A stretch of DNA of 64,000 nucleotides from Akkermansiaceae bacterium (GCA_031371325.1 JANMJJ010000198.1:492-64491); one strand, 5' to 3'. Numbered from the stretch's first letter, positions 1 through 32,263 are shown. Notes: a model not told the origin generated them from the sequence alone. Program-made: numbers and translations.

Positions 1-780
1 CTTAAGTTTCCTCAAGAACTGGCCGGATTGGTCCTTTCACAGAATAGCGACTTGCCGCTCGCTGCAATGGTGGTGCCAGAGGCTTTCAAGGAACGCATCC
101 AGCGGGTGATTCATGAGTTCCGCCAACAGGCGAAACTGAAGAAATACGGGATGTCGAATCGGCGGAAAATCCTGCTCGCCGGTCCCCCCGGCACCGGCAA
201 GACGATGACGGCGAGAATTCTTTCCCACGAACTGCGCCTTCCTCTCCACACGATCCAAGTGGACAAGCTGGTCACGAAATTCATGGGTGAGACCAGTGCC
301 AAGCTGCGCCAGATTTTCGATCTGATCCGGGATGAGCGCGGAATTTACCTTTTCGATGAGTTTGATGCGATCGGCGGAGATCGGTCCCTCGAAAACGATG
401 TTGGGGAGATGCGCCGGGTTCTCAATGCGCTGCTACAATTTATCGAACAGGACAGCTCGGAAAGCCTGATCATTGGAGCCACCAACAACCACGGGCTCCT
501 CGATCGTGCCTTATTCCGACGTTTCGATGACGTGCTCCACTATGAACTACCAGACGAGGCAGCGCGGCAGCGGCTGATCGAAAACGTGTTGGGTAATTTC
601 AAAGGCCGTCTGGCTTGGAAAGCCATTCTCACCGGGAGCAAGGGACTCAGCCAGGCGGAGATCGACCATGCCTGCCGAGACGCGATCAAGGATTCGATCT
701 TGAACGACCAACCCAAGGTGGAGACCGCCAGTCTGGTAAGAACCTTTCAGGAGCGAAGCCAGACCCACCCACGCAAGTGA
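1..780 (+). CDS. ietA: AAA+ ATPase, IetA-like (5' end lies outside the window)
   Basis: Frame is open from base 1 (LKFPQELAGL...). Walker A GPPGTGKT, Walker B YLFDEFD, SRH ATNN...LDRALFRRFD. Ends 3 bp before an S8 protease gene, the IetAS arrangement. Confidence 0.85.
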   Translation, partial: LKFPQELAGLVLSQNSDLPLAAMVVPEAFKERIQRVIHEFRQQAKLKKYGMSNRRKILLAGPPGTGKTMTARILSHELRLPLHTIQVDKLVTKFMGETSAKLRQIFDLIRDERGIYLFDEFDAIGGDRSLENDVGEMRRVLNALLQFIEQDSSESLIIGATNNHGLLDRALFRRFDDVLHYELPDEAARQRLIENVLGNFKGRLAWKAILTGSKGLSQAEIDHACRDAIKDSILNDQPKVETASLVRTFQERSQTHPRK

Positions 781-783
781 CCC

Positions 784-3276
784 ATGGCTACCGAGCGTTT
801 CCCCCATCTTTTCCTGCCCGGACCATCGGGTCGCCGCGATGACTACAGCAGTCCACGCCGCGGTGGAGATGGCCCCCGGCTCAGACCTCAAGACCGTCCG
901 GTGCACGCAGAGTGTATCAGACTCGCCTTGGTTACCGCGTGGGCCCAGGCCGAAGAGCGGCGAGCGGTCGCGTATTCAAGCCGGGGCGGGGTCTATCTTG
1001 AATTCGCCAGTGAACCGGGATTCGATCTGGTTCTGAAAAGCCTGGAGTCCCGGCAGGCGGGGATCAAACTCCTCAACGTCAGGATTGAAGGCAATGCCGG
1101 CGAGGAGACTACCCGCGCGACGGTTTTCATCCCTGCGGACAAAAGCACCTATTTTCTCAAGAAGGTCATCGAATACGCCACCACGGACAATCGGCCGAAG
1201 AAGGACGGCACGATCACGCCGAAGAACGGAACCTTGATCGAAAGCATCGGCGACGTCAGGGCCGCCCTCTTGGAATTCTCGTTTTGGCAGGATTCGCCAG
1301 ACCGGCTTCCCTCCGAGACACCTGAATGGGTGGAAGTGTGGTTGAGCAGCGAAGACCTTGGTGTGATCGAGATTTTTAAAGCACTGTGCGCGGCGCAGGC
1401 GATCGAGCTGGGTCAAGGGCAACTCACGTTCCCGGAGAGAACCGTCCTGCTAATTTTGGCATCAAGGACTCAGTTGGAGGCATTAATCGAACATTCCGAG
1501 TCGCTCGCGGAGTTCAGAGGCTCTCGAAAGAGAGCCACGTTTTACATCGAACAAGAGAATACCGATCAGGCTGAACGGGTAAACCATCTGATTCGCCGCA
1601 CCACAGTGCGAAATCCTGAGCAGACAGTGGTGCTTGTGCTGGATCATGGAGTCAACAACGGCCATCGACTGCTGGAGGCAGTTCTTTCCGATGAGGATTG
1701 CCACGCGGCAGATCCTGCGTGGGGGACGCAAGACGATCACGGCCACGGAACGCTCATGGCTGGCATGGCAGCCTATGGCGATCTGCTTCAATACTTGGAT
1801 GGTTCTCAGCCGATCATCCTCCGGCATAGCCTTGAATCCGCGAAAATTCTGCCGCCGCCACCAGAAGAGAATCCCCGTCGCCTATGGGGCCATTTCACCT
1901 CTCGGGGAATCAGCGAAGCTGAGTATCATCAGCCGCACAAAAAGCGAATCATTTGCATGGCCATCACAAGTGAGGACGGACTCAATCGCGGTCGCCCTTC
2001 ATCATGGTCAGGGCAGCTTGATGAATTGGCTTCCGGCTACAGTGACGACCGTCAACGGCTGATCATCGTAAGCGGCGGAAATGTCCGCGATCCCCATGAT
2101 TGGAAGCGATTTCCGGATTCGAACTTCGATTGTGAGATTCACGACCCAGCCCAAGCTTGGAACGCTCTGACCGTCGGAGCTTACACCAAGAAAATCCAAA
2201 TCACGGACCTGACACTGTCATCATACGTCGCGATTGCCGAGGCAGGCGATCTCTCGCCGTATTCTTCAACTTCTGCCTCGTGGCCGAAGCGTAAATGGCC
2301 GATCAAGCCGGAGATCCTACTTGAGGGAGGCAACGTCGCGCGAGGCCCCAACGACAGCATTTTCGATACCGATGACTTGAAGTTGCTTTCAACTTACCAC
2401 GATCCTCAGGTTGCTCAGTTCGCCGCCTTCGATGCCACCAGCGCGGCAACTGCACAAGCCGCATGGATGGCTGCACGGATTCAATCCACGTATCCCCATG
2501 CCTGGCCGGAGACTGTTCGTGGATTGATGGTGCATTCTGCGGAGTGGACGGAAACGCAGCGTCGCAAATATCTCCGAAACGAGTCAAAAGGCGCTTACTA
2601 TCAACTCGCCAAGATTTGCGGCTATGGCGTTCCAAATCTGGAGCGGACGCTGTCATGCGCTTCCAATTCACTGTCCTTGATTGCCCAGTCGACACTTCAG
2701 CCCTTCGATAAAAACGCGAAAGGCCGATACGTTTCCAAAGACATGCATATTTACGAGCTTCCCTGGCCGGTGGAAGTCCTGCGTGATCTCGGAGAGTTGC
2801 CCGTGCGGATGCGCGTCACTCTTTCTTATTTTGTAGAACCAAGCCCGGGTGAAATCGGTTGGAAGGATCGCTACCGCTATGCATCACACGGGCTTCGCTT
2901 CGAGCTAAACGGCCCGGGCCAAAGCTACGAGGAGTTTATCAAACATGTGAACCACAAAGCAAGGGACGAGGAGGACTATCAAAAAACCGAAGGGGCATCA
3001 GACCATTGGCAACTGGGTGAAGCTCGAAATGTCGGATCAATCCACTCGGATACATGGTCTGGCACCGCAGCCGAACTGGCTTTATCCGGACTGATCGCCG
3101 TTCATCCTGCTGTCGGGTGGTGGCGCGAGCGGTATCACTTGGGAAAATATAACAAAAAAACCCGTTACTCGCTTATCGTATCCTTCACGCTGCCCGGGCA
3201 AGAAATTGATATCTACACACCTGTAGCAATTCAGTTAGGCGTGCCGATCTCAGTGCCAATAACGCCTTCAACTTGA
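784..3276 (+). CDS. ietS: S8 (subtilisin-like) serine peptidase, IetS-like
   Basis: 830 aa. Catalytic Asp (VLDHGV), His (DDHGHGTLMAG) and Ser (ATSAA). Also PAQAWNALTVGA, IKPEILLEGGN, AWPETVRGLMVHSAEW, CGYGVP and the C-terminal RYSLIVS typical of ATPase-coupled S8 proteins. Confidence 0.88.
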   Translation: MATERFPHLFLPGPSGRRDDYSSPRRGGDGPRLRPQDRPVHAECIRLALVTAWAQAEERRAVAYSSRGGVYLEFASEPGFDLVLKSLESRQAGIKLLNVRIEGNAGEETTRATVFIPADKSTYFLKKVIEYATTDNRPKKDGTITPKNGTLIESIGDVRAALLEFSFWQDSPDRLPSETPEWVEVWLSSEDLGVIEIFKALCAAQAIELGQGQLTFPERTVLLILASRTQLEALIEHSESLAEFRGSRKRATFYIEQENTDQAERVNHLIRRTTVRNPEQTVVLVLDHGVNNGHRLLEAVLSDEDCHAADPAWGTQDDHGHGTLMAGMAAYGDLLQYLDGSQPIILRHSLESAKILPPPPEENPRRLWGHFTSRGISEAEYHQPHKKRIICMAITSEDGLNRGRPSSWSGQLDELASGYSDDRQRLIIVSGGNVRDPHDWKRFPDSNFDCEIHDPAQAWNALTVGAYTKKIQITDLTLSSYVAIAEAGDLSPYSSTSASWPKRKWPIKPEILLEGGNVARGPNDSIFDTDDLKLLSTYHDPQVAQFAAFDATSAATAQAAWMAARIQSTYPHAWPETVRGLMVHSAEWTETQRRKYLRNESKGAYYQLAKICGYGVPNLERTLSCASNSLSLIAQSTLQPFDKNAKGRYVSKDMHIYELPWPVEVLRDLGELPVRMRVTLSYFVEPSPGEIGWKDRYRYASHGLRFELNGPGQSYEEFIKHVNHKARDEEDYQKTEGASDHWQLGEARNVGSIHSDTWSGTAAELALSGLIAVHPAVGWWRERYHLGKYNKKTRYSLIVSFTLPGQEIDIYTPVAIQLGVPISVPITPST

Positions 3277-3304
3277 GGGTTCATAGAAGCTCCGAAGAGC
3301 CCAA

Positions 3305-3376
3305 CAAAACCAAGAACTCACCGCCCTCCGCGATTGGCTGCCCATGCTCATGAACGGCCAAGTGCGGGTGGGGTAA
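3305..3376 (+). repeat. hsdS 3'-tail copy 1 (QNQELTALRDWLPMLMNGQVRVG*)
   Basis: Direct repeat of 4873-4950, 5085-5150 and 5363-5437; one Leu codon is missing. Translates to the conserved C-terminal helix of type I RM specificity subunits. Confidence 0.9.
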
Positions 3377-3391
3377 TGCCAAAGCAAAGCC

Positions 3392-3535
3392 TTGTAGCGT
3401 CGCTCTATGAGCGTCGATGCCAAAGTCCCGCGCGAAGCCATCTTCCATTCAAAAATCAACATTCATCAATCGTCAATCTCCCCCTCTTCCATTCTGACAT
3501 CTCATCCGCCCGACGGTCGCAGACCGCCGCTACAA
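3392..3535. repeat. GTAG-type REP doublet (REPIN-like) with an internal heptamer run
   Basis: Left arm TTGTAGCGTCGCTCTATGAGCGTCG (3392-3416); inverted right arm CGACGGTCGCAGACCGCCGCTACAA (3511-3535). Each arm is internally palindromic. Confidence 0.75.
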
Positions 3536-3544
3536 AACATAATC

Positions 3545-4654
3545 ATGAAATCTCATCCATCCGTAGGTCGCAACTCTCCGTGTCATTGTGGCAGCGGTAA
3601 AAAATACAAGAAGTGCTGTTCAGAAGCAGATACCACAGCAATGGCAACCAAAGCGGCCATTGTCACACCTGGAAATGCGGCGCATCCCGCAATAAATGAA
3701 AGGGCAGGCTTGAGTGTTCATCCCTACTCGATTGCGAAAATAGTGGCGAACCCTCCTCCCAACATCTTGGCCAAACTCTCAAAACGCGATATCGCGGCAC
3801 TCAAAAACAAGTGGTCCTCGGCCAAAGTGGCCCTGTTGGAAACCGACGAGATTGTGTCGCGCTTGAAAAAACTCGGGATTGACGGCAGCCATGCCAGCTT
3901 TGGCAACTTGACGAGTGGACGCAGCTCGGCATGGAGCATCGGTAATATTTGGATTGACGGTCGGTCTGCGCAGTTAGGTGTCGACGAGGAGGATTTTATC
4001 TGTCTGTCGGCGTGCGAATTGTGGAAGCGGTATTGCCCCGGGCGGCCGTCCATGGAAATGCTGGACGACTGGGTAACCGAAGGTTATGAACTATCAGAAT
4101 CGCGCAAGGAAGTTGAAGCAGTCGAGATCTGGTTGCGGGTCTGGGAATACGTCCGCCCAAGGATCGAACCACACATGACCACCTTCGCTGCCGCCGATCC
4201 GGTGTTTCAGGTCTCGCAGTTTTTTGGAAACTGGATTCAGGATTTCACCACGGATGCTAGAAACGCGGCGACCCGTGAGTCAAAGTGTGCCGAGATGGGC
4301 ATCCAGGTCATCCATGAAGTGCTGGCCCAGTTCGTGGATGAGGACTTGGACACAATCCTCTACTTTCGTTGTGAACTCGGAGCTTTACTGTTTCATGCTG
4401 GCCGTTTCAAAGAAGGAGAGGCAATCCTTCAATCCGTCATCAGCGAATATCCCGATCGGTCTCGTGGATATGCAGAATTGGCGAGGGCCATGGGATGCCC
4501 CACGCACGGAACACCGAATTTTCCCCGTGCAATTTCCATCCTCGAGCAAGCGCTGGCCTACCCGGTGGTTGACGCCACAGACTATGATCTCAAATTTCGA
4601 TTGGATGACCTCCGTGAAAACATGCGGGCATCGGCACCGGCTTTGCCGTCCTAA
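3545..4654 (+). CDS. SEC-C motif protein with C-terminal TPR-like helical repeats
   Basis: N-terminal [19 protein letters not shown] is a SEC-C zinc-binding motif. TPR-like segments include [23 protein letters not shown]. Start placed at ATG 3545. Confidence 0.8.
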
Positions 4655-4950
4655 GACCAAAAACCGCTATCTGTCGGGAATTCGACTACCTCAGCCTCAT
4701 CTCGGAAACCAACATCAACCGCCTCACCACCGTCGCCAGCGGCGCTGCCTACCCAGCCGTGAACCCCGAAGTCGTCGCTGCCCAAACCATCGCCCTCCCG
4801 GACGCGGAACTCCTCCAACAATTCCACCAAACCACCGCCTCCTTCTTCAACCTCATCGAACGCCACCGCGCCCAAAACCAAGAACTCACCACCCTCCGCG
4901 ACTGGCTCCTCCCCATGCTCATGAACGGCCAAGTGCGGGTCACCGAATGA
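4630..4950 (+). pseudogene. hsdS: Type I RM specificity subunit HsdS, C-terminal fragment (end of TRD plus tail copy 2)
   Basis: Frame 1 reads [12 protein letters not shown]...SGAAYPAVNPEVVAAQTIALPD...FHQTTASFFNLIE...[40 protein letters not shown] and LRDxLLPxLMNG are HsdS motifs. The 5' part is missing and overlaps the SEC-C stop codon. Confidence 0.88.
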
Positions 4951-4979
4951 ATGCCGCTACCCACCGTGCCCCTGAACCT

Positions 4980-5081
4980 TGGACTGCGGCAGCCTGCTGC
5001 CGCTTTCAGATTTGCAGCCTGCTGCGAATCCGGGCCAGCAGGCTGGCTCCGGGAAAGCGGCAGCAGGCTGCACGCACTCCA
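4980..5081. repeat. REP-like inverted-repeat element (GGACTGCGGCAGC family)
   Basis: TGGACTGCGGCAGCCTGCTGCCGCTTTC ... GAAAGCGGCAGCAGGCTGCACGCACTCCA form long inverted arms. A related half-site TGGAGTGCGGCAGC occurs near 37658. Confidence 0.8.
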
Positions 5082-5084
5082 CGC

Positions 5085-5150
5085 CAACTCACCACCCTCC
5101 GCGACTGGCTGCTTCCCATGCTCATGAACGGCCAGGTGCGGGTGGGTTGA
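5085..5150 (+). repeat. hsdS 3'-tail copy 3 (QLTTLRDWLLPMLMNGQVRVG*)
   Basis: Direct repeat of the other tails, with its 5' end clipped by the preceding hairpin. Confidence 0.9.
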
Positions 5151-5161
5151 ATGTTCCAAAA

Positions 5162-5348
5162 CCCCAACGGGGTGAACGATGACAGCCCAGGGCAACGCCC
5201 TGGGAACCCGCCCACCCAAATTCCCAAGCCCTGAAGGGGCGACCCAAAGCTTGTGCCCGCCCTTGTGCCGCCCCTTCAGGGCTAGAAATTATTTTTCGCG
5301 TGAGTCCTAGGGCGCTGCCCTAGGCTGTCATCATTCGCCCCATTGGGG
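5162..5348. repeat. Nested REP-like palindrome (CCCAGGGCAACGCCCTGGG / GCCCTGAAGGGGC family)
   Basis: Outer arms 5162-5205 and 5305-5348. Inner arms AGCCCTGAAGGGGCG (5227-5241) and CGCCCCTTCAGGGCT (5269-5283). Confidence 0.8.
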
Positions 5349-5362
5349 GCTGAAGAATCCCC

Positions 5363-5437
5363 CAAAATCAAGAACTCACCACCCTCCGCGACTGGCTGCT
5401 GCCGATGCTCATGAACGGCCAAGTGCGGGTGGGGTGA
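5363..5437 (+). repeat. hsdS 3'-tail copy 4 (QNQELTTLRDWLLPMLMNGQVRVG*)
   Basis: Direct repeat of the other three tails. Confidence 0.9.
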
Positions 5438-5462
5438 GGCCAAATCAAAGCCCCGCGTCGTC

Positions 5463-5560
5463 GCCAAAGAAAAGCCTTGTAGCGTCGCTCTATGAGCGTC
5501 GATGCCCATGAGCCACGCGAAGCTCCCTGCCGCCATTCTGACATCTCATTCGCACGACGG
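5463..5560. repeat. Truncated second copy of the GTAG-REP element that follows tail 1
   Basis: 5463-5506 matches 3378-3421 with one mismatch. CCATTCTGACATCTCAT is shared (5533-5549 vs 3489-3505). The right arm stops after CGACGG. Confidence 0.8.
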
Positions 5561-5716
5561 CGGAATCCAAATGACGTCAGCATCGGCAGCGAGGAGATTA
5601 TCGCCGCTAGGAAGGAACGCAGATGGGCAGCCCTAACGCACGGGCTGTGGAGGTTCTGGATGCGGCGGCGCGACATGATCCTCGACACGCGTTCAAGTTT
5701 CTTTTAGCCCATCGCC

Positions 5717-6994
5717 ATGTCAGAGCTGTTGTCGATTGCCGTGTTGGGTTGTGGTTCCAGAGGGCGCACGTATTCGAGGCTCATTGCTTCGTCCGGTGAT
5801 CGTTACCGGTTGACCGCCGCCGCCGATCTGGTCGCGACCCGCCGGGAGGCCGTTTCCTCACTCGGCTCCTCCGGACAAATCCGCGAGTTCGATTCGGCGG
5901 ATTCATTTTTCTCCGCAGGAAAACTCGCCGAGGTGCTGATCATCGCGACTCAGGATTCTCAACATTTCGACCACGCGATGCGGGCGCTGGAACTGGGATA
6001 CCATCTATTATTGGAAAAGCCCGCCGCCGAGTCGCTCGCACGCTGTGAGGAAATCGACCGCCGCGCTCGCGACCTCGGACGGCGTGTCGCGCTCGGCTTT
6101 GTCCTGCGCTACACACCGTTTTATTCGACCGTGAAGCGGATCATCGACAGCGGGAAACTCGGTCGAGTGATATCCATTCGCAGCCATGAGGGAGTGGAGC
6201 CATTCCACCAAGCCCACTCCTATGTGCGAGGACATTGGGCGAAATCCAGCAACTCTTCACCGATGATCGTGGCGAAGTGCTCGCACGATGCCGACATCCT
6301 CTGCTGGCTCGGCGGAGCACCAGTGGCAGCGGTTTCCAGCCATGGCGATCGCTCGTGGTTTCGCTCGGAAAACGCACCCCAGGGAGCACCTGGCCGCTGC
6401 ACCGACGGCTGCCCCGTCGCGAAGGATTGCCTCTACGATGCCCACCACTACCTTACCGGCAAACGTCGCTGGCTCAGCATGGTGATGGACGGATACGAGC
6501 AAACGGATGACGCCGGGATTCTGGCTTTCCTCAAGTCCTCGCCATGGGGACGTTGTGTCTATCATTGCGACAATGACGTAGTCGATCATCAGGTGCTTGC
6601 CTGTGAATTGACCAACGGCATCACCGCCACCCACACGATGACCGCATTCGATTGCGGCCGCGGGATCGAGGTCTATGGCACGCTTGCGGCGTTGAAAGGA
6701 GGCGATCCTTATTCCGAAGCCGGTGCGCCGGAGTTATGGCTTCGAAATCACGCCGCAGGCAACATCGAGCCGGTGGAAATCCACGAACAGGACGACGCCG
6801 GATATGCCGGCCACGGCGGCGGTGATTGGGGTCTGGTTGACGCGCTCGACGGACTCTTCCGGGGTGCCAACGCACTCCCCCCCGGACTCGACGGACTCGC
6901 CGGGCACCGACTTGCCTTCCTTGCCGAGGAAGCACGCGTCACGCGGCGGCGGATCGAGTGCCAGAGCAGCGAGGTGGAGATTCTAGAGTCCTAA
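5717..6994 (+). CDS. Gfo/Idh/MocA family NAD(P)-dependent oxidoreductase
   Basis: GCGSRG Rossmann start, [26 protein letters not shown]. Confidence 0.9.
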
Positions 6995-27286: not shown

Positions 27287-30200
27287 TTATTTCTGCACGA
27301 CGCCTTCCGGGCTGGTCATCGCGGTCCAAATGGCGAGGGCGACGCGGTCGTGCTGACTGAGGGCCGGATCGGCGAGAGCGCCGAGCATGATGCTGCGGGT
27401 GCGGGCGGTCAGGTTGCCGGCGCAGACGAGCAGATCGATGTGATCGACCAACGCGGCAGGACTTTCTGCCAGTAAGAGCGTATCGCTGTAGTCCATTGGC
27501 AATTCCCAGGTCCAACCGGATTTGAAGCCGTCATGCAGATAGTCCCACAGCAGATTTGGAAACGACACTGCGGAGTAAGTGTTGATGATTTGGAAGCCCG
27601 GGCTGACCAAGCCGCCGTTGCGGATTTCGCCCGGTGCCTGATAGACCGGCGTGTAGAAGTTAAAAACGCTCGGCGAGTTCATCGGCTCCTGGATGCTGTA
27701 GCCGTAAAAATTCTCGGTCCAATTCCACCAGACGAACTTCGGGTGCGCCTCGGCGAGATGGAACAGGCGGCCGAGGTGCATCGTGCGGATCACCGGCTCG
27801 CGGACCTTGCCGAACGAGGGCGAGAGCGACGGGTTGCGTGCCTCGGGATCGAGCAGGATCGTTTTGACCACGGCTGCTAGATTCCCGCGGACGCCGGTGC
27901 CGTCGTTCACGAAAACATCCTGCACGCGGTGGATGTAGGCGGGCGAGGGATTATCGGTGACGAGGAACTGGATAAGCTGGCGGCAGACGAACGGCGGCGT
28001 GTTGGAGTGCTCGAAGAGCGCCTCGACGGCGTCGCGCACGTCTTGGATGCCGTTGGTTTCCGAGGCATCGCGGGCCGGGATGACCACGCCGTGCGGCAGA
28101 TGTTTCACCTCGAAATCGTGACGGTCCGGATACATCACCATCGGCAACGTGAAGTGCTCGTCCGCCCAACCGCCGCCGCCCCAGCCGTAGGGCGAGGCGA
28201 AGTAGAGGCCGGTGAAAACGCGGGCGAGTTCGGTGATGTCGCCGTTGTCGTAGGTGGGGATCGGCTCGCCGTTAGAACTGAGCTTGCGGCTGCCATCGGG
28301 ATTGAGTTCCCACAGGCCGATGGTGAAAAGCTGCATGATTTCCCGCGCGTAATTCTCATCCGGATAGCGGGGGATCGACGGGTCGGCCTTTTGATTTCCC
28401 GCGTGGCTGAGATACCAGCCGAGCGACGGATGGAAGGTGACCTCGCGGAGCAGATCGCCGAAGTTGCCGAGCGCGTGGCGGACGAGGACGTCGTAATAGC
28501 TCGTCATTGCCTCGGGCTTCTCCTCGAGGTTCGCATCGCGGCGGGAAACGACGAGGATCTGCGAGAGCGCGAAGGCGACACGCTGGCGGAGTTGGTCCTC
28601 CCCGGCGATGGCGTTGCGGGCGAATGGCGTGGTGACGTTGTTGCCATAGACGAACTTGTCCTGGTCGCTGAAATTGTAAGTTAGGTCGGCACGCGGCCCC
28701 GCGCCATCGGCTTTGATTTCACGGATGTAGGGCTGGAGCAGCGATGGAGGAAGGGTGATCTGGGCGTCGATCCACGCGGAATAGCCGAGGCCTCTAACTT
28801 CCTGGATGGCCGCCAAGGTGGGACCGAATGAAGCCTGCATCAGAAAGCGCGACGCATTCACTGGCGATGGCTTGCCCGCTGCGGTGCTGCCACTCGTGCC
28901 GCCGGTGGGAGACGATCCTTGGAGTCGGTCCAACAGCGCCACCGCATCCCCGGCGAGGGTTTGGCCGTTGGCTTTCACCAGCGACTGCCCGAGCGAGCCG
29001 GTGCTAGTAGGTGAAGAACCGAGCACCTGGTTTTCGGCCCAGTCCTCGACTCCGTCGCCATCGGTATCGAACGGCTGAATCCCCGTGCGATAGAAAAATT
29101 TCCCGCTGGCCGGGGGAAACACCGCAGGGATCGTGAGCTGCCTGCGCCCGCCGACGATGGCTGACGCAGGAAGACCCGTCGCGGTTTGCCAGCCGTTGAG
29201 CCCGCCGCTGGTTTCGACGTGCTGGGCCTTGTCCGGGAGGTTGGTCCACGACAGGACGAAGTTGTTAGCAGAGCGCCAGGCTGTGAGATCGAGGTGCGAG
29301 TTGGCGTCGTCGGGGTTGGTGCCGGCCTTGCTTTCATTGAGGTTGCTCACGCCGTCGCCATCGTCGTCGGCAGCGGGCAGCCGGTGTTTTCCGCCGCTCC
29401 ACAGGACCCATGAGTCGGACAGGCCGTCGCCATCGAGGTCGTCGATCTTGCCGGTGAAGTTGAACCACCCAGGAAAGTTCGCGGCGGATAGAGGGTTGAA
29501 GCCACGTAGAAGCTCGACGCCGTCGGAAGCGCCATCGCCGTCGCTGTCGGCAACGCGCGGGTTGGTCCCTGCTAGAAATTCCTTGAGGTTGGACAGCCCG
29601 TCCGAGTCGGCGTCCAACAGGGCATCGGTGGCGCTGGCGGGATTGAACGAATTCGCGGTTTCCCACGCATCGGTCATGCCGTCGCAGTCCGTGTCCATAG
29701 GGGCGAGCGGGTTCGGCGTGATGAGGGCAAGGACGCCGACTTCTTTCCAAAAAGTCATTTGCCCAACGACTCCGCTCTGATTTTTCCAAAGCGTGGTCCC
29801 GGAGATCAACGAGGGATCGGTGGCAACGGCGGAATTGTCCGAGTATGAAGCGAGAGTGACCGGGGCCGCAGGGTTCGTTAGATCGGCGATCAGGAAATTG
29901 AGCGTCCAGAGATTCACCGCCGGATTCGGTTGGACTGCGGTGAATTCCATGCGCAGCGGCAGCGAATCATCCGCCGGGCCATAGCCGCTGAAGCCGAAGG
30001 CGCGGGTGCGGTCGGTGGGTGAGGTATTCCAATCGCTGTCCCAGAAACCGTCGTTAGGGAGTCCGTTGCGATGGAACACCCCTTCGATGCCGCGGAAACG
30101 ATGCACCAGCTTGCCATGGACATAACGGATGCCCATCCCGATCTGGCGGCTCCAACCGCTCTGGTTGATGTCGGCCACGGCTTCACACAGCATCGTCTCG

Positions 30201-32263
30201 TCGGAATTGATCGCTCCTAACATTGACTGCTCGTGATTCCAGAGCACGCGCAGATTGTCGATCCGCCAGCGCCAGGTGCGGGTGGCGGCGGTCCAGATCG
30301 GCACCGGCGGCGGCGTGCTCGCGGCGGAGAGCGGATTGGAGCCATAGGTGCGCTCGACCGCGTCGGTGAAGCCGTCGTTGTCGCTATCAGCTAGAGTGGG
30401 CGCCGACGGGAAGGGCGTCCCGTTGATCTCGTCGCCGTCGGTCAGGCCGTCGTCGTCGCTGTCGGGATCGAGCGGCGAGGTGCCATGGGCGGCTTCCGCA
30501 CCGTCGGCGATGCCGTCATGGTCGCTGTCCGGCTGATGGGGATCGGTGCCGGCGGCGATTTCTGCGGCGTTGCTCATGCCGTCGGCGTCCGCATCGGCGG
30601 TGGCGTCGGCCACGGCGGGATTGAAATGATTCTCGATTTCGACCGCGTCCGCCATGCCATCGCCGTCGGTATCCGTGCCGCTGTCGATGATCTGGATGCC
30701 ATGAATCGCCACGACATCGTTGTCGATGGCGGTGAGGGTGACGGACTGGGCCGATCCGGTTAGGTGGCGGTAGCGGACGATGTTTCCGGGTAAAATCGCG
30801 GCCTGGGTGCTCGCGGTGACTTCCTTCCAGCCGAGGAAAGGCGGGCTTGAGGACGCCACGAAATAGCGGTCGGTCGCCGGATCGCTGCCACGGCGGAGCA
30901 CCCCGCGGGCGTAGGGATAAATTTGCCCGACATACACGAGCAGGTCGTAGCTGGCGTAGGGAATCCCGGTTAGACTGACCGTGGCGGGTGTATTCGTTGC
31001 AGGGGTGCGCTGCGCTAAGATCATGCCGCCTAGCAGACGTGCGTCCCCCACCCCTTTGTGAAGACCCTCGCTGGAATAATGATACGACCAGCTTGCCGCC
31101 GCAGTGGTGGCTTGGCCGCGGTGGTTTTTCAGGGCGGCCTTGGACGCGTTTAGCACCGTGCCGTCGGGCACCCACCCTGGCAACGGATCCGAGGCATTCC
31201 ACCGCGGCAGGCGGAAATAGCCAGCCGGCTCTCCCGCGCCGAGGGGCGCGGCGGCTTGCGATTCGCAGATGAACTGGAGGCCGATCGCGCCCGGAAAATT
31301 GAAGGGCACAGACGCCGGATTCGCGGGGTTGCTGCCTTGTTCGAGCTCGATGTTATCCAGATAGGTGTCGCCATCGGTATCGGCGAGCAAGGGACTGCTG
31401 GTGGTTTCCCGGCCATCTGCCAGACCGTCCCCATCCGTGTCCTGGTTCAACGGGTTCGTGCCGAGAGTCGCCTCCTGCAAATCCGTTAGCCCGTCATTGT
31501 CGCTGTCTGGATCGGTGGGGTTGGTGCCTGCCAAAAACTCGGCGAGGTCGCTCCGACCGTCCGCGTCGGGATCGAGCAAGGCGTCCGCTGCATTGGCATC
31601 ACTGAGTCCGTAGATTTCCTCGAACCACAACGCCATGCCATCGCCATCAGCATCTGTCAGGGCGTCGGAATCCGCCTCCAGCGCGACGAAATCCAAGCTG
31701 ATGTAGCCGCCGGTCGCGCCACCCGTGCGTTCGATTTGCAAAGTGTTCGCGCCGGCGACGGCGGAAACCGACGCGGCGGAAACAGTGAAGACCAGCGTGG
31801 TGTTGGCAGTGATGGCGGTGCGGCTGCCGACCGGATGGCCGTTGAACGTCACCGCGACATCGTGTTTGGAATAGCCGGGAAGCGAGCCGTTGATCCAAGC
31901 CCCGCCACCGATTAGATCGACGGTGACCCGCAACCGCGAGGTCGCGAATGCCTGCGCGGCGGTCAGCGGGAAATGGATGCGGTCCCGTGGGTCGCCCTCG
32001 GTGACAGCCCGCTCGACAAGCGCGAGGTTCTCGTTTGCGGCGAGCACTCCGACGGGTGCCGGATAGGTTCCGGCGAAGTAGTAGTCGTCGTCCTTTGCCA
32101 CCGGCGAACCCGGAGCGAGGTTGGAGAAAAAACTTTCCTGGGAAAACGGCGTGCTATTCCCGTCATCGATGCCGAGTTGCCAGACGGGCGCGAATTGGGC
32201 GGCTGCCGCGAACCCCAGAAGTTGAGCGGTGGCTCCGATGACGTGAACAACAAGGCGGGACAT
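27287..32263 (-). CDS. Large secreted DUF1800 family protein with DxDxDG (TSP3-like) repeats and N-terminal beta-sandwich domains
   Basis: C-terminal ASRFLMQASFG, QLRQRVAFALSQILVVS, PDENYAREIMQLFTIGL, NTPPFVCRQLIQFLV, GKVREP. Many DSDxDG repeats; N-terminal signal peptide. Confidence 0.9.
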   Translation of the reverse strand: MSRLVVHVIGATAQLLGFAAAAQFAPVWQLGIDDGNSTPFSQESFFSNLAPGSPVAKDDDYYFAGTYPAPVGVLAANENLALVERAVTEGDPRDRIHFPLTAAQAFATSRLRVTVDLIGGGAWINGSLPGYSKHDVAVTFNGHPVGSRTAITANTTLVFTVSAASVSAVAGANTLQIERTGGATGGYISLDFVALEADSDALTDADGDGMALWFEEIYGLSDANAADALLDPDADGRSDLAEFLAGTNPTDPDSDNDGLTDLQEATLGTNPLNQDTDGDGLADGRETTSSPLLADTDGDTYLDNIELEQGSNPANPASVPFNFPGAIGLQFICESQAAAPLGAGEPAGYFRLPRWNASDPLPGWVPDGTVLNASKAALKNHRGQATTAAASWSYHYSSEGLHKGVGDARLLGGMILAQRTPATNTPATVSLTGIPYASYDLLVYVGQIYPYARGVLRRGSDPATDRYFVASSSPPFLGWKEVTASTQAAILPGNIVRYRHLTGSAQSVTLTAIDNDVVAIHGIQIIDSGTDTDGDGMADAVEIENHFNPAVADATADADADGMSNAAEIAAGTDPHQPDSDHDGIADGAEAAHGTSPLDPDSDDDGLTDGDEINGTPFPSAPTLADSDNDGFTDAVERTYGSNPLSAASTPPPVPIWTAATRTWRWRIDNLRVLWNHEQSMLGAINSDETMLCEAVADINQSGWSRQIGMGIRYVHGKLVHRFRGIEGVFHRNGLPNDGFWDSDWNTSPTDRTRAFGFSGYGPADDSLPLRMEFTAVQPNPAVNLWTLNFLIADLTNPAAPVTLASYSDNSAVATDPSLISGTTLWKNQSGVVGQMTFWKEVGVLALITPNPLAPMDTDCDGMTDAWETANSFNPASATDALLDADSDGLSNLKEFLAGTNPRVADSDGDGASDGVELLRGFNPLSAANFPGWFNFTGKIDDLDGDGLSDSWVLWSGGKHRLPAADDDGDGVSNLNESKAGTNPDDANSHLDLTAWRSANNFVLSWTNLPDKAQHVETSGGLNGWQTATGLPASAIVGGRRQLTIPAVFPPASGKFFYRTGIQPFDTDGDGVEDWAENQVLGSSPTSTGSLGQSLVKANGQTLAGDAVALLDRLQGSSPTGGTSGSTAAGKPSPVNASRFLMQASFGPTLAAIQEVRGLGYSAWIDAQITLPPSLLQPYIREIKADGAGPRADLTYNFSDQDKFVYGNNVTTPFARNAIAGEDQLRQRVAFALSQILVVSRRDANLEEKPEAMTSYYDVLVRHALGNFGDLLREVTFHPSLGWYLSHAGNQKADPSIPRYPDENYAREIMQLFTIGLWELNPDGSRKLSSNGEPIPTYDNGDITELARVFTGLYFASPYGWGGGGWADEHFTLPMVMYPDRHDFEVKHLPHGVVIPARDASETNGIQDVRDAVEALFEHSNTPPFVCRQLIQFLVTDNPSPAYIHRVQDVFVNDGTGVRGNLAAVVKTILLDPEARNPSLSPSFGKVREPVIRTMHLGRLFHLAEAHPKFVWWNWTENFYGYSIQEPMNSPSVFNFYTPVYQAPGEIRNGGLVSPGFQIINTYSAVSFPNLLWDYLHDGFKSGWTWELPMDYSDTLLLAESPAALVDHIDLLVCAGNLTARTRSIMLGALADPALSQHDRVALAIWTAMTSPEGVVQK

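What the first reader, a model, noticed from the sequence alone, without database searches (positions are those of the whole stretch)
3305..5560. Array of four hsdS 3'-tail repeats separating cargo: a possible hsdS-anchored cassette-capture system
Seen: the last ~22-25 codons of a type I RM hsdS gene occur four times in direct orientation (3305, 4873, 5085, 5363), each with its own stop codon. Between and before them lie ietAS, a SEC-C/TPR gene with a longer hsdS piece, and palindromic elements. Established: this C-terminal helix is the conserved block of HsdS, and conserved hsdS blocks mediate TRD exchange. Inference: the tail acts as an att-like landing pad. An incoming unit of [cargo + tail] recombines into the resident hsdS end, regenerates a functional gene and pushes older tails downstream, like an integron array without an integron integrase. 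I do not know of a named system with this layout.
Basis: partly seen in the sequence, partly recalled or inferred. Interest (0 to 1): 0.85.

Follow-up and report, generated by a model that had tools for sequence, protein, structure and literature searches.

The report
hsdS tails mark stacked defence insertions
Five leftover copies of the end of a restriction-system gene (hsdS) sit between anti-phage genes and small palindromic repeats, and the same scar follows about a dozen ordinary genes in this genome, so they are likely footprints of the host's own recombination slotting new genes in behind a gene end rather than a dedicated integron-like machine.

Summary
The four tails are real and a fifth lies just upstream. 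Another contig ends in an intact hsdR-hsdM-hsdS that likely adjoins the array. Two of the joins recur in a second strain, so misassembly is unlikely. Other genomes show the same layout: 11 of 34 intact hsdS genes of this family have downstream orphan tails, always on the same strand, bracketing mostly defence or toxin-antitoxin genes in varying order. It is not an att site: no recombinase nearby, no hairpin, and the tails start at variable points. It is not hsdS-specific: 14 of 2154 genes here (ilvD, prmA, trpC, holA...) have their 3' end copied behind cargo, against 1 on the upstream side. At ilvD, relatives show both the empty site and the donor form. Best reading: homology-anchored insertion with long target duplication creates each tail; tail-flanked units then likely spread by ordinary recombination. 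The scan noted hsdS-tail arrays on other DNA before. My paper searches found the process in print, not this layout.

The parts
1..780 (+). ietA, AAA ATPase (starts 182 bases upstream of the window, G000:C86:309); first cargo gene, preceded by a fifth hsdS tail at C86:148-223
   Evidence: PADLOC IetA E 4.8e-74
784..3276 (+). ietS, subtilase; second cargo gene
   Evidence: PADLOC IetS E 4.3e-30; Pfam Peptidase_S8
3305..3376 (+). orphan hsdS tail T1 (one codon deleted), 28 bases after the ietS stop
3393..3534 (.). REP-like element el1 with short inverted ends; 10 sites in the genome
   Evidence: whole-element folding not better than shuffles (z -0.4)
3545..4654 (+). SEC-C/TPR gene, cargo of unknown function; its last codons and stop overlap the hsdS piece
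   Evidence: Pfam SEC-C E 2e-7, TPR weak; no PADLOC hit
4634..4950 (+). 3' piece of a different hsdS allele (about 105 codons of a second TRD2 type) ending in tail T2 (4873-4950)
   Evidence: 88.6% over 325 nt to L141, 68-74% to intact hsdS genes L147, L060, L071; only the tail matches the intact hsdS on C47
4980..5081 (.). REP-like hairpin element el2; 14 sites in the genome
   Evidence: z -8.0
5085..5150 (+). orphan hsdS tail T3 (shorter 5' side)
5162..5348 (.). REP-like nested palindrome el3; 16 sites in the genome; weak Acido-Lenti-1 similarity below the Rfam cut-off
5363..5437 (+). orphan hsdS tail T4
5478..5560 (.). second, truncated copy of el1; end of the array
   Evidence: D3, D4
4873..5437 (+). 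block T2-el2-T3-el3-T4 (about 565 nt), whose two ends recur at the end of C47 (118 nt, 95.8%) and the start of C86 (223 nt, 97.3%): a long duplication bracketing ietAS + el1 + SEC-C gene
5717..6994 (+). Gfo/Idh/MocA oxidoreductase, first gene outside the array; similarity to the closest relative begins near 5679

Best explanation
The array is likely a stack of insertion scars made by host recombination, each event likely adding [gene end + new cargo] at the hsdS end and leaving the older gene end behind it. Step 1 (inferred): incoming DNA from a relative pairs with the resident gene through its conserved 3' end, and its far end is joined illegitimately, either by trimming, circularising and a single crossover, or by linear homology-facilitated illegitimate recombination; the product is gene - cargo - orphan tail. 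Step 2 (inferred): because the variable TRD2 precedes the conserved 70-nt tail, the tail is often the only shared sequence, so orphans mostly start at or inside it; longer remnants can be trimmed later. Step 3 (inferred from shared joins and changed order): once flanked by two tails, a unit can be imported, lost or reordered by ordinary recombination between tails. Shown: the layout, its polarity, its recurrence in three phyla, the defence-type cargo, the same scar at housekeeping genes, and the empty/donor/hybrid trio at ilvD. Not shown: the enzymes, circles, or current activity.
For: Polarity: no locus among 93 has tails on both strands; 11 of 34 intact hsdS genes with 3 kb or more downstream have an orphan. 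Unit = tail then cargo: C86:148-3769 aligns with L032 at 87.5% from the tail through ietS; L029, L055 and L094 likewise for PDC-M19. Far join differs for the same cargo: SEC-C gene (window vs L016, the latter at a short microhomology), DUF5615 pair (L103 vs L106), AAA pair (L103 vs L113), PDC-M19 (L029 vs L094). Orphan starts: 32 at -60..-20, 17 inside the tail, 11 longer, of 60. Spread as units: same join for the DUF5615 pair in L106 and L142, el1-to-tail in 5 loci, el3-to-tail in 3 genomes; same cargo first or second in different arrays (L103, L113, L030, L110, L029). General process: 14 of 2154 ORFs with a downstream same-strand copy of their 3' end (46-223 nt) vs 1 upstream, 2 opposite-strand, 3 mid-gene, 4 5'-end; hosts include ilvD, prmA, trpC, holA, bioD, hisJ, malQ. 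ilvD: G116 and G156 empty, G065 same cargo without orphan, G142 and G144 own orphans of about 53 and 45 nt. No tyrosine recombinase on C47 or C86, no resolvase in the genome, ComEC and DprA present. Precedent: 56 of 60 one-sided-homology recombinants in E. coli were gene-end duplications of 109-950 bp (PMC3240628, section read).
Against: No intermediate was seen; only assembled contigs were available. The C47-C86 join is inferred from a shared repeat, not bridged. The clustering of orphan starts near the beginning of the conserved tail (32 of 60) is tighter than random trimming predicts and could reflect a preferred cut site. 23 of 34 intact hsdS genes have no orphan. The genome is 83% complete, so a recombinase could be missing. 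The ilvD comparators are other species (88-92% identical), so donor and recipient halves could not be assigned by SNPs. Loci were chosen by an exact tail pattern and are not a random sample.
Confidence: 0.7

Rival explanations
1. A dedicated integron-like system: a site-specific recombinase acting in trans uses the hsdS tail as an att site and integrates circular cargo+tail cassettes.
For: Same polarity, cargo in different ranks, some joins conserved between genomes; orphan starts cluster; the tvr locus shows repeat-guided excision in an hsdS locus (PMC6265443).
Against: No recombinase on either contig; no hairpin in the tail (z 0.1 and -0.9); boundaries range from +16 to about -340; same scar at unrelated housekeeping genes.
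Confidence: 0.07
2. Whole hsdS-plus-neighbour segments were added in tandem or displaced (TRD replacement pushing the old hsdS end downstream) and then eroded by deletion to the tail, with no later mobility of tail-flanked units.
For: 11 of 60 orphans keep TRD2 remnants; the window's 4634-4950 piece is another TRD2 allele; L016 looks like a deletion derivative of the window's arrangement; hsdS alleles differ between strains that share the cargo.
Against: Does not explain why erosion stops at the tail start so often, nor identical tail-cargo-tail units in different array positions.
Confidence: 0.13
3. REP/RAYT activity creates the duplications: HUH nicking at the palindromes primes insertion and copies the adjacent tail.
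For: Three different REP-like elements each sit between tails; 16 Y1 transposase matches in the genome; el1-tail units occur away from hsd genes in L142, L143, L146, L151.
Against: Most cargo between tails, here and at housekeeping genes, has no palindrome at the join; the elements occur at 10-16 other sites.
Confidence: 0.07
4. The array is a misassembly of strain alleles.
For: Metagenome assembly; contigs break inside the repeats; one run holds two TRD2 alleles.
Against: Single contigs span tail-ietAS-tail and el1-SEC-C-hsdS piece in run X1, and a strain about 1% different in X2 covers the same joins; multi-tail arrays occur in many independent genomes.
Confidence: 0.03

Closest known systems
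Insertion with long target duplication (Furuta, Abe and Kobayashi 2010, PMC2853133; passages and Discussion read)
   Same: Integrase-free insert under 20 kb between long, variable, imperfect direct repeats; empty site in relatives (shown here for ilvD).
   Different: There the R-M genes are the cargo; here an R-M gene end is the target, events stack serially, and cargo is other defence genes and REP-like elements.
Homology-facilitated illegitimate recombination and circularise-plus-single-crossover gene-end duplication (Amarir-Bouhram et al. 2011, PMC3240628; one section and passages read; author names recalled)
   Same: One homologous anchor, one illegitimate join, variable gene-end duplication.
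   Different: Laboratory plasmid assay in E. coli at about 1e-9; not natural arrays, and no later shuffling.
T6SS immunity arrays by sequential displacement in Vibrio (Kirchberger et al. 2017, PMC5361080; passages read), and Rhs C-terminal displacement (seen only in its text and reference list)
   Same: New modules enter at a conserved anchor, older pieces shift downstream, integron-like order without an integrase, later spread by homologous recombination.
   Different: There the displaced parts are effector ends and immunity genes of one system; here a 70-nt conserved gene end brackets unrelated cargo.
Pneumococcal tvr (SpnIV) locus (Kwun et al. 2018, PMC6265443; abstract and one section read)
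   Same: Direct repeats from hsdS conserved sequence, toxin-antitoxin-like genes inside an hsd locus, excision between repeats.
   Different: Has its own recombinase TvrR and shuffles complete TRD-encoding sequences; neither is present here.
Defence genes embedded in type I R-M loci (Payne et al. 2024, bioRxiv 10.1101/2024.01.29.577857; search listing and three passages read; author name from an earlier scan note)
   Same: Cargo found here includes its PDC and HEC candidates.
   Different: The text has no occurrence of 'recombination' or 'hsdS'; the tails offer a route by which such cargo arrives.
Integron cassette arrays (recalled)
   Same: Polar array of cargo separated by short related repeats.
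   Different: No IntI, no attC hairpin, no fixed crossover.

Membership tests
Integron / CALIN | IntI tyrosine recombinase beside the array | tested here: not met
   10 PF00589 matches in the genome, none on C47 or C86; whether any is an IntI was not tested
Integron / CALIN | attC sites folding as imperfect hairpins | tested here: not met
   Tail folding z 0.11 and -0.85; the repeat is coding sequence of hsdS
Integron / CALIN | Fixed crossover point | tested here: not met
   Orphan 5' boundaries from +16 to about -340 relative to the LRDW codons
tvr-type translocating hsdS locus | Recombinase gene inside the locus | tested here: not met
tvr-type translocating hsdS locus | Spare complete TRD-encoding sequences flanked by repeats | tested here: not met
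   Only about 105 codons of a second TRD2 remain, with no central conserved repeat before it
tvr-type translocating hsdS locus | Circular intermediates | not testable with these tools
   Only contigs, no raw or long reads
Insertion with long target duplication | Direct repeat over 30 bp, variable length | tested here: met
   45-565 nt at hsdS, 46-363 nt at other genes
Insertion with long target duplication | Insert under 20 kb with no mobility gene | tested here: met
   0.1-5.5 kb; exceptions carry a RAYT as cargo (L105, prmA site)
Insertion with long target duplication | Empty site with a single copy in a comparator genome | tested here: inconclusive
   Met at ilvD (2 of 29 relatives); no conspecific empty allele found for the hsdS array
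Insertion with long target duplication | R and M genes inside the insert (criterion of Furuta 2010) | tested here: not met
   Inserts carry IetAS and other cargo; the R-M gene is the target
Homology-facilitated illegitimate recombination | Homologous join on one side, non-homologous or microhomology join on the other | tested here: met
   Pattern only: tail-to-cargo side conserved, cargo-to-tail side variable
Homology-facilitated illegitimate recombination | RecA dependence and DNA uptake | not testable with these tools
   ComEC and DprA genes are present; competence not shown

The most novel reading that the evidence does not exclude
The conserved hsdS tail is a shared docking sequence for an integrase-free pool of defence cassettes exchanged across Verrucomicrobiota, Desulfobacterota and Gammaproteobacteria: tail-flanked units excise as circles and re-enter next to hsdS, and gene-end capture of this kind is a main route of gene gain in these bacteria. 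Orphan gene ends would then be a genome-wide marker for finding and ordering newly acquired defence genes.
Probability: 0.3. Interest if true: 0.75.

Novelty: new variant of a known kind. Interest (0 to 1): 0.5.

Why it matters
How defence genes pile up in R-M loci that lack any integrase is an open question; the embedding paper lists such cargo without a route. Orphan tails record each insertion, give its order, and point to uncharacterised cargo (the SEC-C/TPR gene, the genes in L068 and L070) as defence candidates. The housekeeping-gene cases show the route is general, and the ilvD trio makes it testable by comparison alone. A specialist would find the layout striking but the chemistry familiar.

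Tried and rejected
Joints in the laid contigs that skip between repeats (223 to 5954 in X2; 5280 to 5702 in X3/X4) were not used: they lie in repeats and have short sides. The X1 joint suggesting a second TRD2 allele (118 to 666, depth 4.8 vs 5.3, side 25 letters) and the lack of cover of this hsdS in X2 are weak hints only. No laid contig bridges C47 to C86. An empty site for the whole island was sought from both flanks: none of 18 oxidoreductase loci and none of 19 left-flank loci links the two sides or holds hsdR. Rfam gave no match above a gathering score. The first genome-wide tail screen was too noisy and partly cut; searches replaced it. In one search the 14 hits include one REP-derived ORF (C42) and one tandem integrase-like case (C132), leaving 12 clean; leuD (363 nt) was dropped by the paralogue filter. 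In one search L016 was wrongly classed intact (SEC-C fusion); it does not enter the 11 of 34. For one search, 19 of 79 rows were dropped (contig-edge genes, frameshifted whole genes, near-duplicate loci). L057's weak second hit was excluded. Paper searches found no description of orphan hsdS tails bracketing cargo; the library lacks most subscription papers, Nobusato 2000 was not read, and supplements were not opened.

Full report
Observation. The window is G000:C86:492-64491. A fifth copy lies at C86:148-223, behind the same palindrome that precedes the last window copy. The genome holds seven copies in all: five on C86, one at the end of C47, one on C29. The reverse end of C47 carries intact hsdR (1031 aa), hsdM (538 aa) and hsdS (436 aa) (PADLOC Specificity_I E 1.6e-86). 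Its last 118 bases match the start of the window block 4873-5437 at 95.8%, and the first 223 bases of C86 match the end of that block at 97.3%; the only other contig end that touches the block does so through the el2 repeat alone. The likely order is hsdR - gene - hsdM - hsdS[tail] - el2 - (gap) - el3 - tail - ietA - ietS - tail - el1 - SEC-C/TPR - piece of another hsdS[tail] - el2 - tail - el3 - tail - el1 - oxidoreductase. The join across the gap is inferred.

Assembly check. In run X1 one contig spans the fifth tail, ietAS and T1, and another spans el1, the SEC-C gene and the hsdS piece up to T2. Run X2, from the same study, holds a strain with 28 differences in 2.9 kb that covers the same joins. 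X1 may be the source sample, so X2 is the independent piece. The short stretch T2-T4 and the link to C47 are not bridged.

Recurrence. 9 of 36 same-genus genomes and 0 of 24 from other families matched the tail in a first draw; 55 of 208 in the whole genus, many weakly. An exact-pattern scan of species representatives gave 69 stretches, a metagenome scan 7. Over 93 loci there are 122 distinct tails, never on both strands; 11 of 34 intact hsdS genes with at least 3 kb held downstream have an orphan tail. This set was chosen by the tail itself and is not random. Multi-tail loci come mostly from Verrucomicrobiota, also from Desulfomonile, Geobacteraceae and Sedimenticola records. Of 16 multi-tail loci from other genomes that I annotated, 10 have a PADLOC match between tails (Kiwa, Shedu, PDC-S25, PDC-M19, PDC-M24, HEC-01B, NsnB-like, a weak PDC-M64), 2 more a toxin-antitoxin-type Pfam match, 1 a Y1 transposase, 1 an unknown gene, and 2 only a short spacer.

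What the unit is. Alignments between genomes start at a tail and run through the cargo behind it: C86:148-3769 against L032 at 87.5%, L029 against L055 and L094. The join from cargo to the next tail often differs for the same cargo: SEC-C gene (window: into a TRD2 remnant at about 4634; L016: straight into the tail at a short microhomology), DUF5615 pair (L103 vs L106), AAA pair (L103 vs L113), PDC-M19 (L029 vs L094; none in L055). In other cases the join is shared: DUF5615 pair in L106 and L142, el1-to-tail in five loci, el3-to-tail in three genomes. The same cargo stands first behind hsdS in one array and second in another (AAA pair, PDC-S25, PDC-M19). Of 60 orphans, 32 begin 60 to 20 bases before the LRDW codons, 17 begin later, 11 keep longer TRD2 remnants. 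So joins arise independently and imprecisely, and finished tail-cargo-tail units likely travel.

Not an att site. No tyrosine recombinase lies on C47 or C86 and no resolvase was found in this 83%-complete genome. The tail folds no better than shuffles. The palindromes are separate genome-wide repeats (10-16 sites each) in a genome with 16 Y1 transposase matches; calling them REP-like rests on their form and on recall. Here they behave as cargo.

Not specific to hsdS. Of 2154 ORFs screened, 14 have a copy of their last 46-223 bases downstream on the same strand within 6 kb, against 1 upstream, 2 on the opposite strand, 3 mid-gene and 4 of a 5' end; 12 of the 14 are clean. Hosts include ilvD, prmA, trpC, holA, bioD, hisJ, malQ and a vanZ-family gene, and leuD by hand; cargo includes VapC-type toxins, a cytosine methylase, a RAYT and unknown genes. 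A second hsdS family shows the same scar around an MntA pair on C34. The two copies differ by 3-22%, and similarity mostly ends at or near the stop codon. At ilvD, of 29 relatives, G116 and G156 run from ilvD straight into what follows the orphan here, G065 has ilvD plus the same cargo and no orphan, and G142 and G144 carry another cargo with orphans of different length. G000 is thus a hybrid of a donor form and an empty form, joined inside the gene end.

The lone C29 tail is not a stray: it lies beside rplQ, and in three of four close relatives checked the gene left of the hsd island adjoins rplQ directly. It is likely the island's old right end, separated by a later rearrangement.

Mechanism. 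Incoming DNA with a gene end plus new cargo is likely anchored by homology and joined illegitimately at its far end. Two known routes give this product: linear homology-facilitated illegitimate recombination, and trimming, circularisation and a single crossover, which in E. coli gave gene-end duplications of 109-950 bp in 56 of 60 clones (PMC3240628). My data do not separate them. In the window the last event added ietAS, el1 and the SEC-C gene with a 565-nt duplicated block and a remnant of another TRD2. hsdS is likely a hot spot because its end is conserved across phyla while the TRD before it varies, and because defence cargo is favoured and turns over. ComEC and DprA are present, so transformation is a plausible entry route. 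All enzymatic steps are inference.

Comparison. It works like insertion with long target duplication (PMC2853133) and like sequential displacement in Vibrio T6SS arrays (PMC5361080), whose authors also drew the integron parallel. It fails the tests for integrons and for tvr-type loci. My eight paper searches found no account of orphan hsdS tails bracketing defence cargo, within the limits of the library. Earlier notes of this scan report the hsdS pattern on other DNA at least eight times with similar readings; they are not independent support. What this case adds is the two-sided junction analysis, the genome-wide control at housekeeping genes and the ilvD trio.

Verdict. Real, recurrent, a new variant of a known kind of recombination scar; interest 0.5.

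Noticed in passing
G000:C29:13734-13860 and G000:C47:7402: The lone tail beside rplQ and the island's left flank are on different contigs, yet these flanks adjoin in G023, G162 and G142; serS, next to the tail here, is about 17 kb away in G142. Suggests a rearrangement that used the island's repeats.
   Followed up: partly
G000:C29:22498-22887, C82:7356-7469, C4:3154-3494, C37:15260-15324: 3' ends of other R-M-type genes (MmeI-like, type ISP-like, methylase; labels recalled from motifs) recur on other contigs as 65-400-nt pieces; whether orphans or paralogue ends was not settled.
   Followed up: partly
G000:C29:838-1561, C97:1679-2393, C165:396-2363: Mirror cases in which a gene's 5' end is duplicated upstream around cargo (GxxExxY protein, VapC pair).
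   Followed up: no
G000:C141:40897-45179: Four or five related 120-150-nt repeats separate short unrelated ORFs downstream of a tyrosine recombinase at C141:37762-38409: a possible true integron array; not examined.
   Followed up: no
G000:C47:2975-3908: A 217-codon ORF between hsdR and hsdM is bracketed by a 90-nt direct repeat and preceded by an el1 copy.
   Followed up: no
L142, L143, L146, L151: el1-tail or tail-el1 units stand behind ordinary genes far from any hsd gene in the stretch held, as if the REP-like element carried the tail to new sites.
   Followed up: partly
L108:118-666 in run X1: A contig joins the central hsdS region to the tail with other sequence between, at a depth similar to the resident TRD2: possibly two specificities in one population (short side, weak).
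   Followed up: no
window 5560-5679: About 120 bases between the truncated el1 and the start of similarity to relatives have no assigned origin.
   Followed up: partly
window 27287-32263: A 1658-aa ORF with internal repeats of Asp/Gly-rich type; not examined.
   Followed up: no
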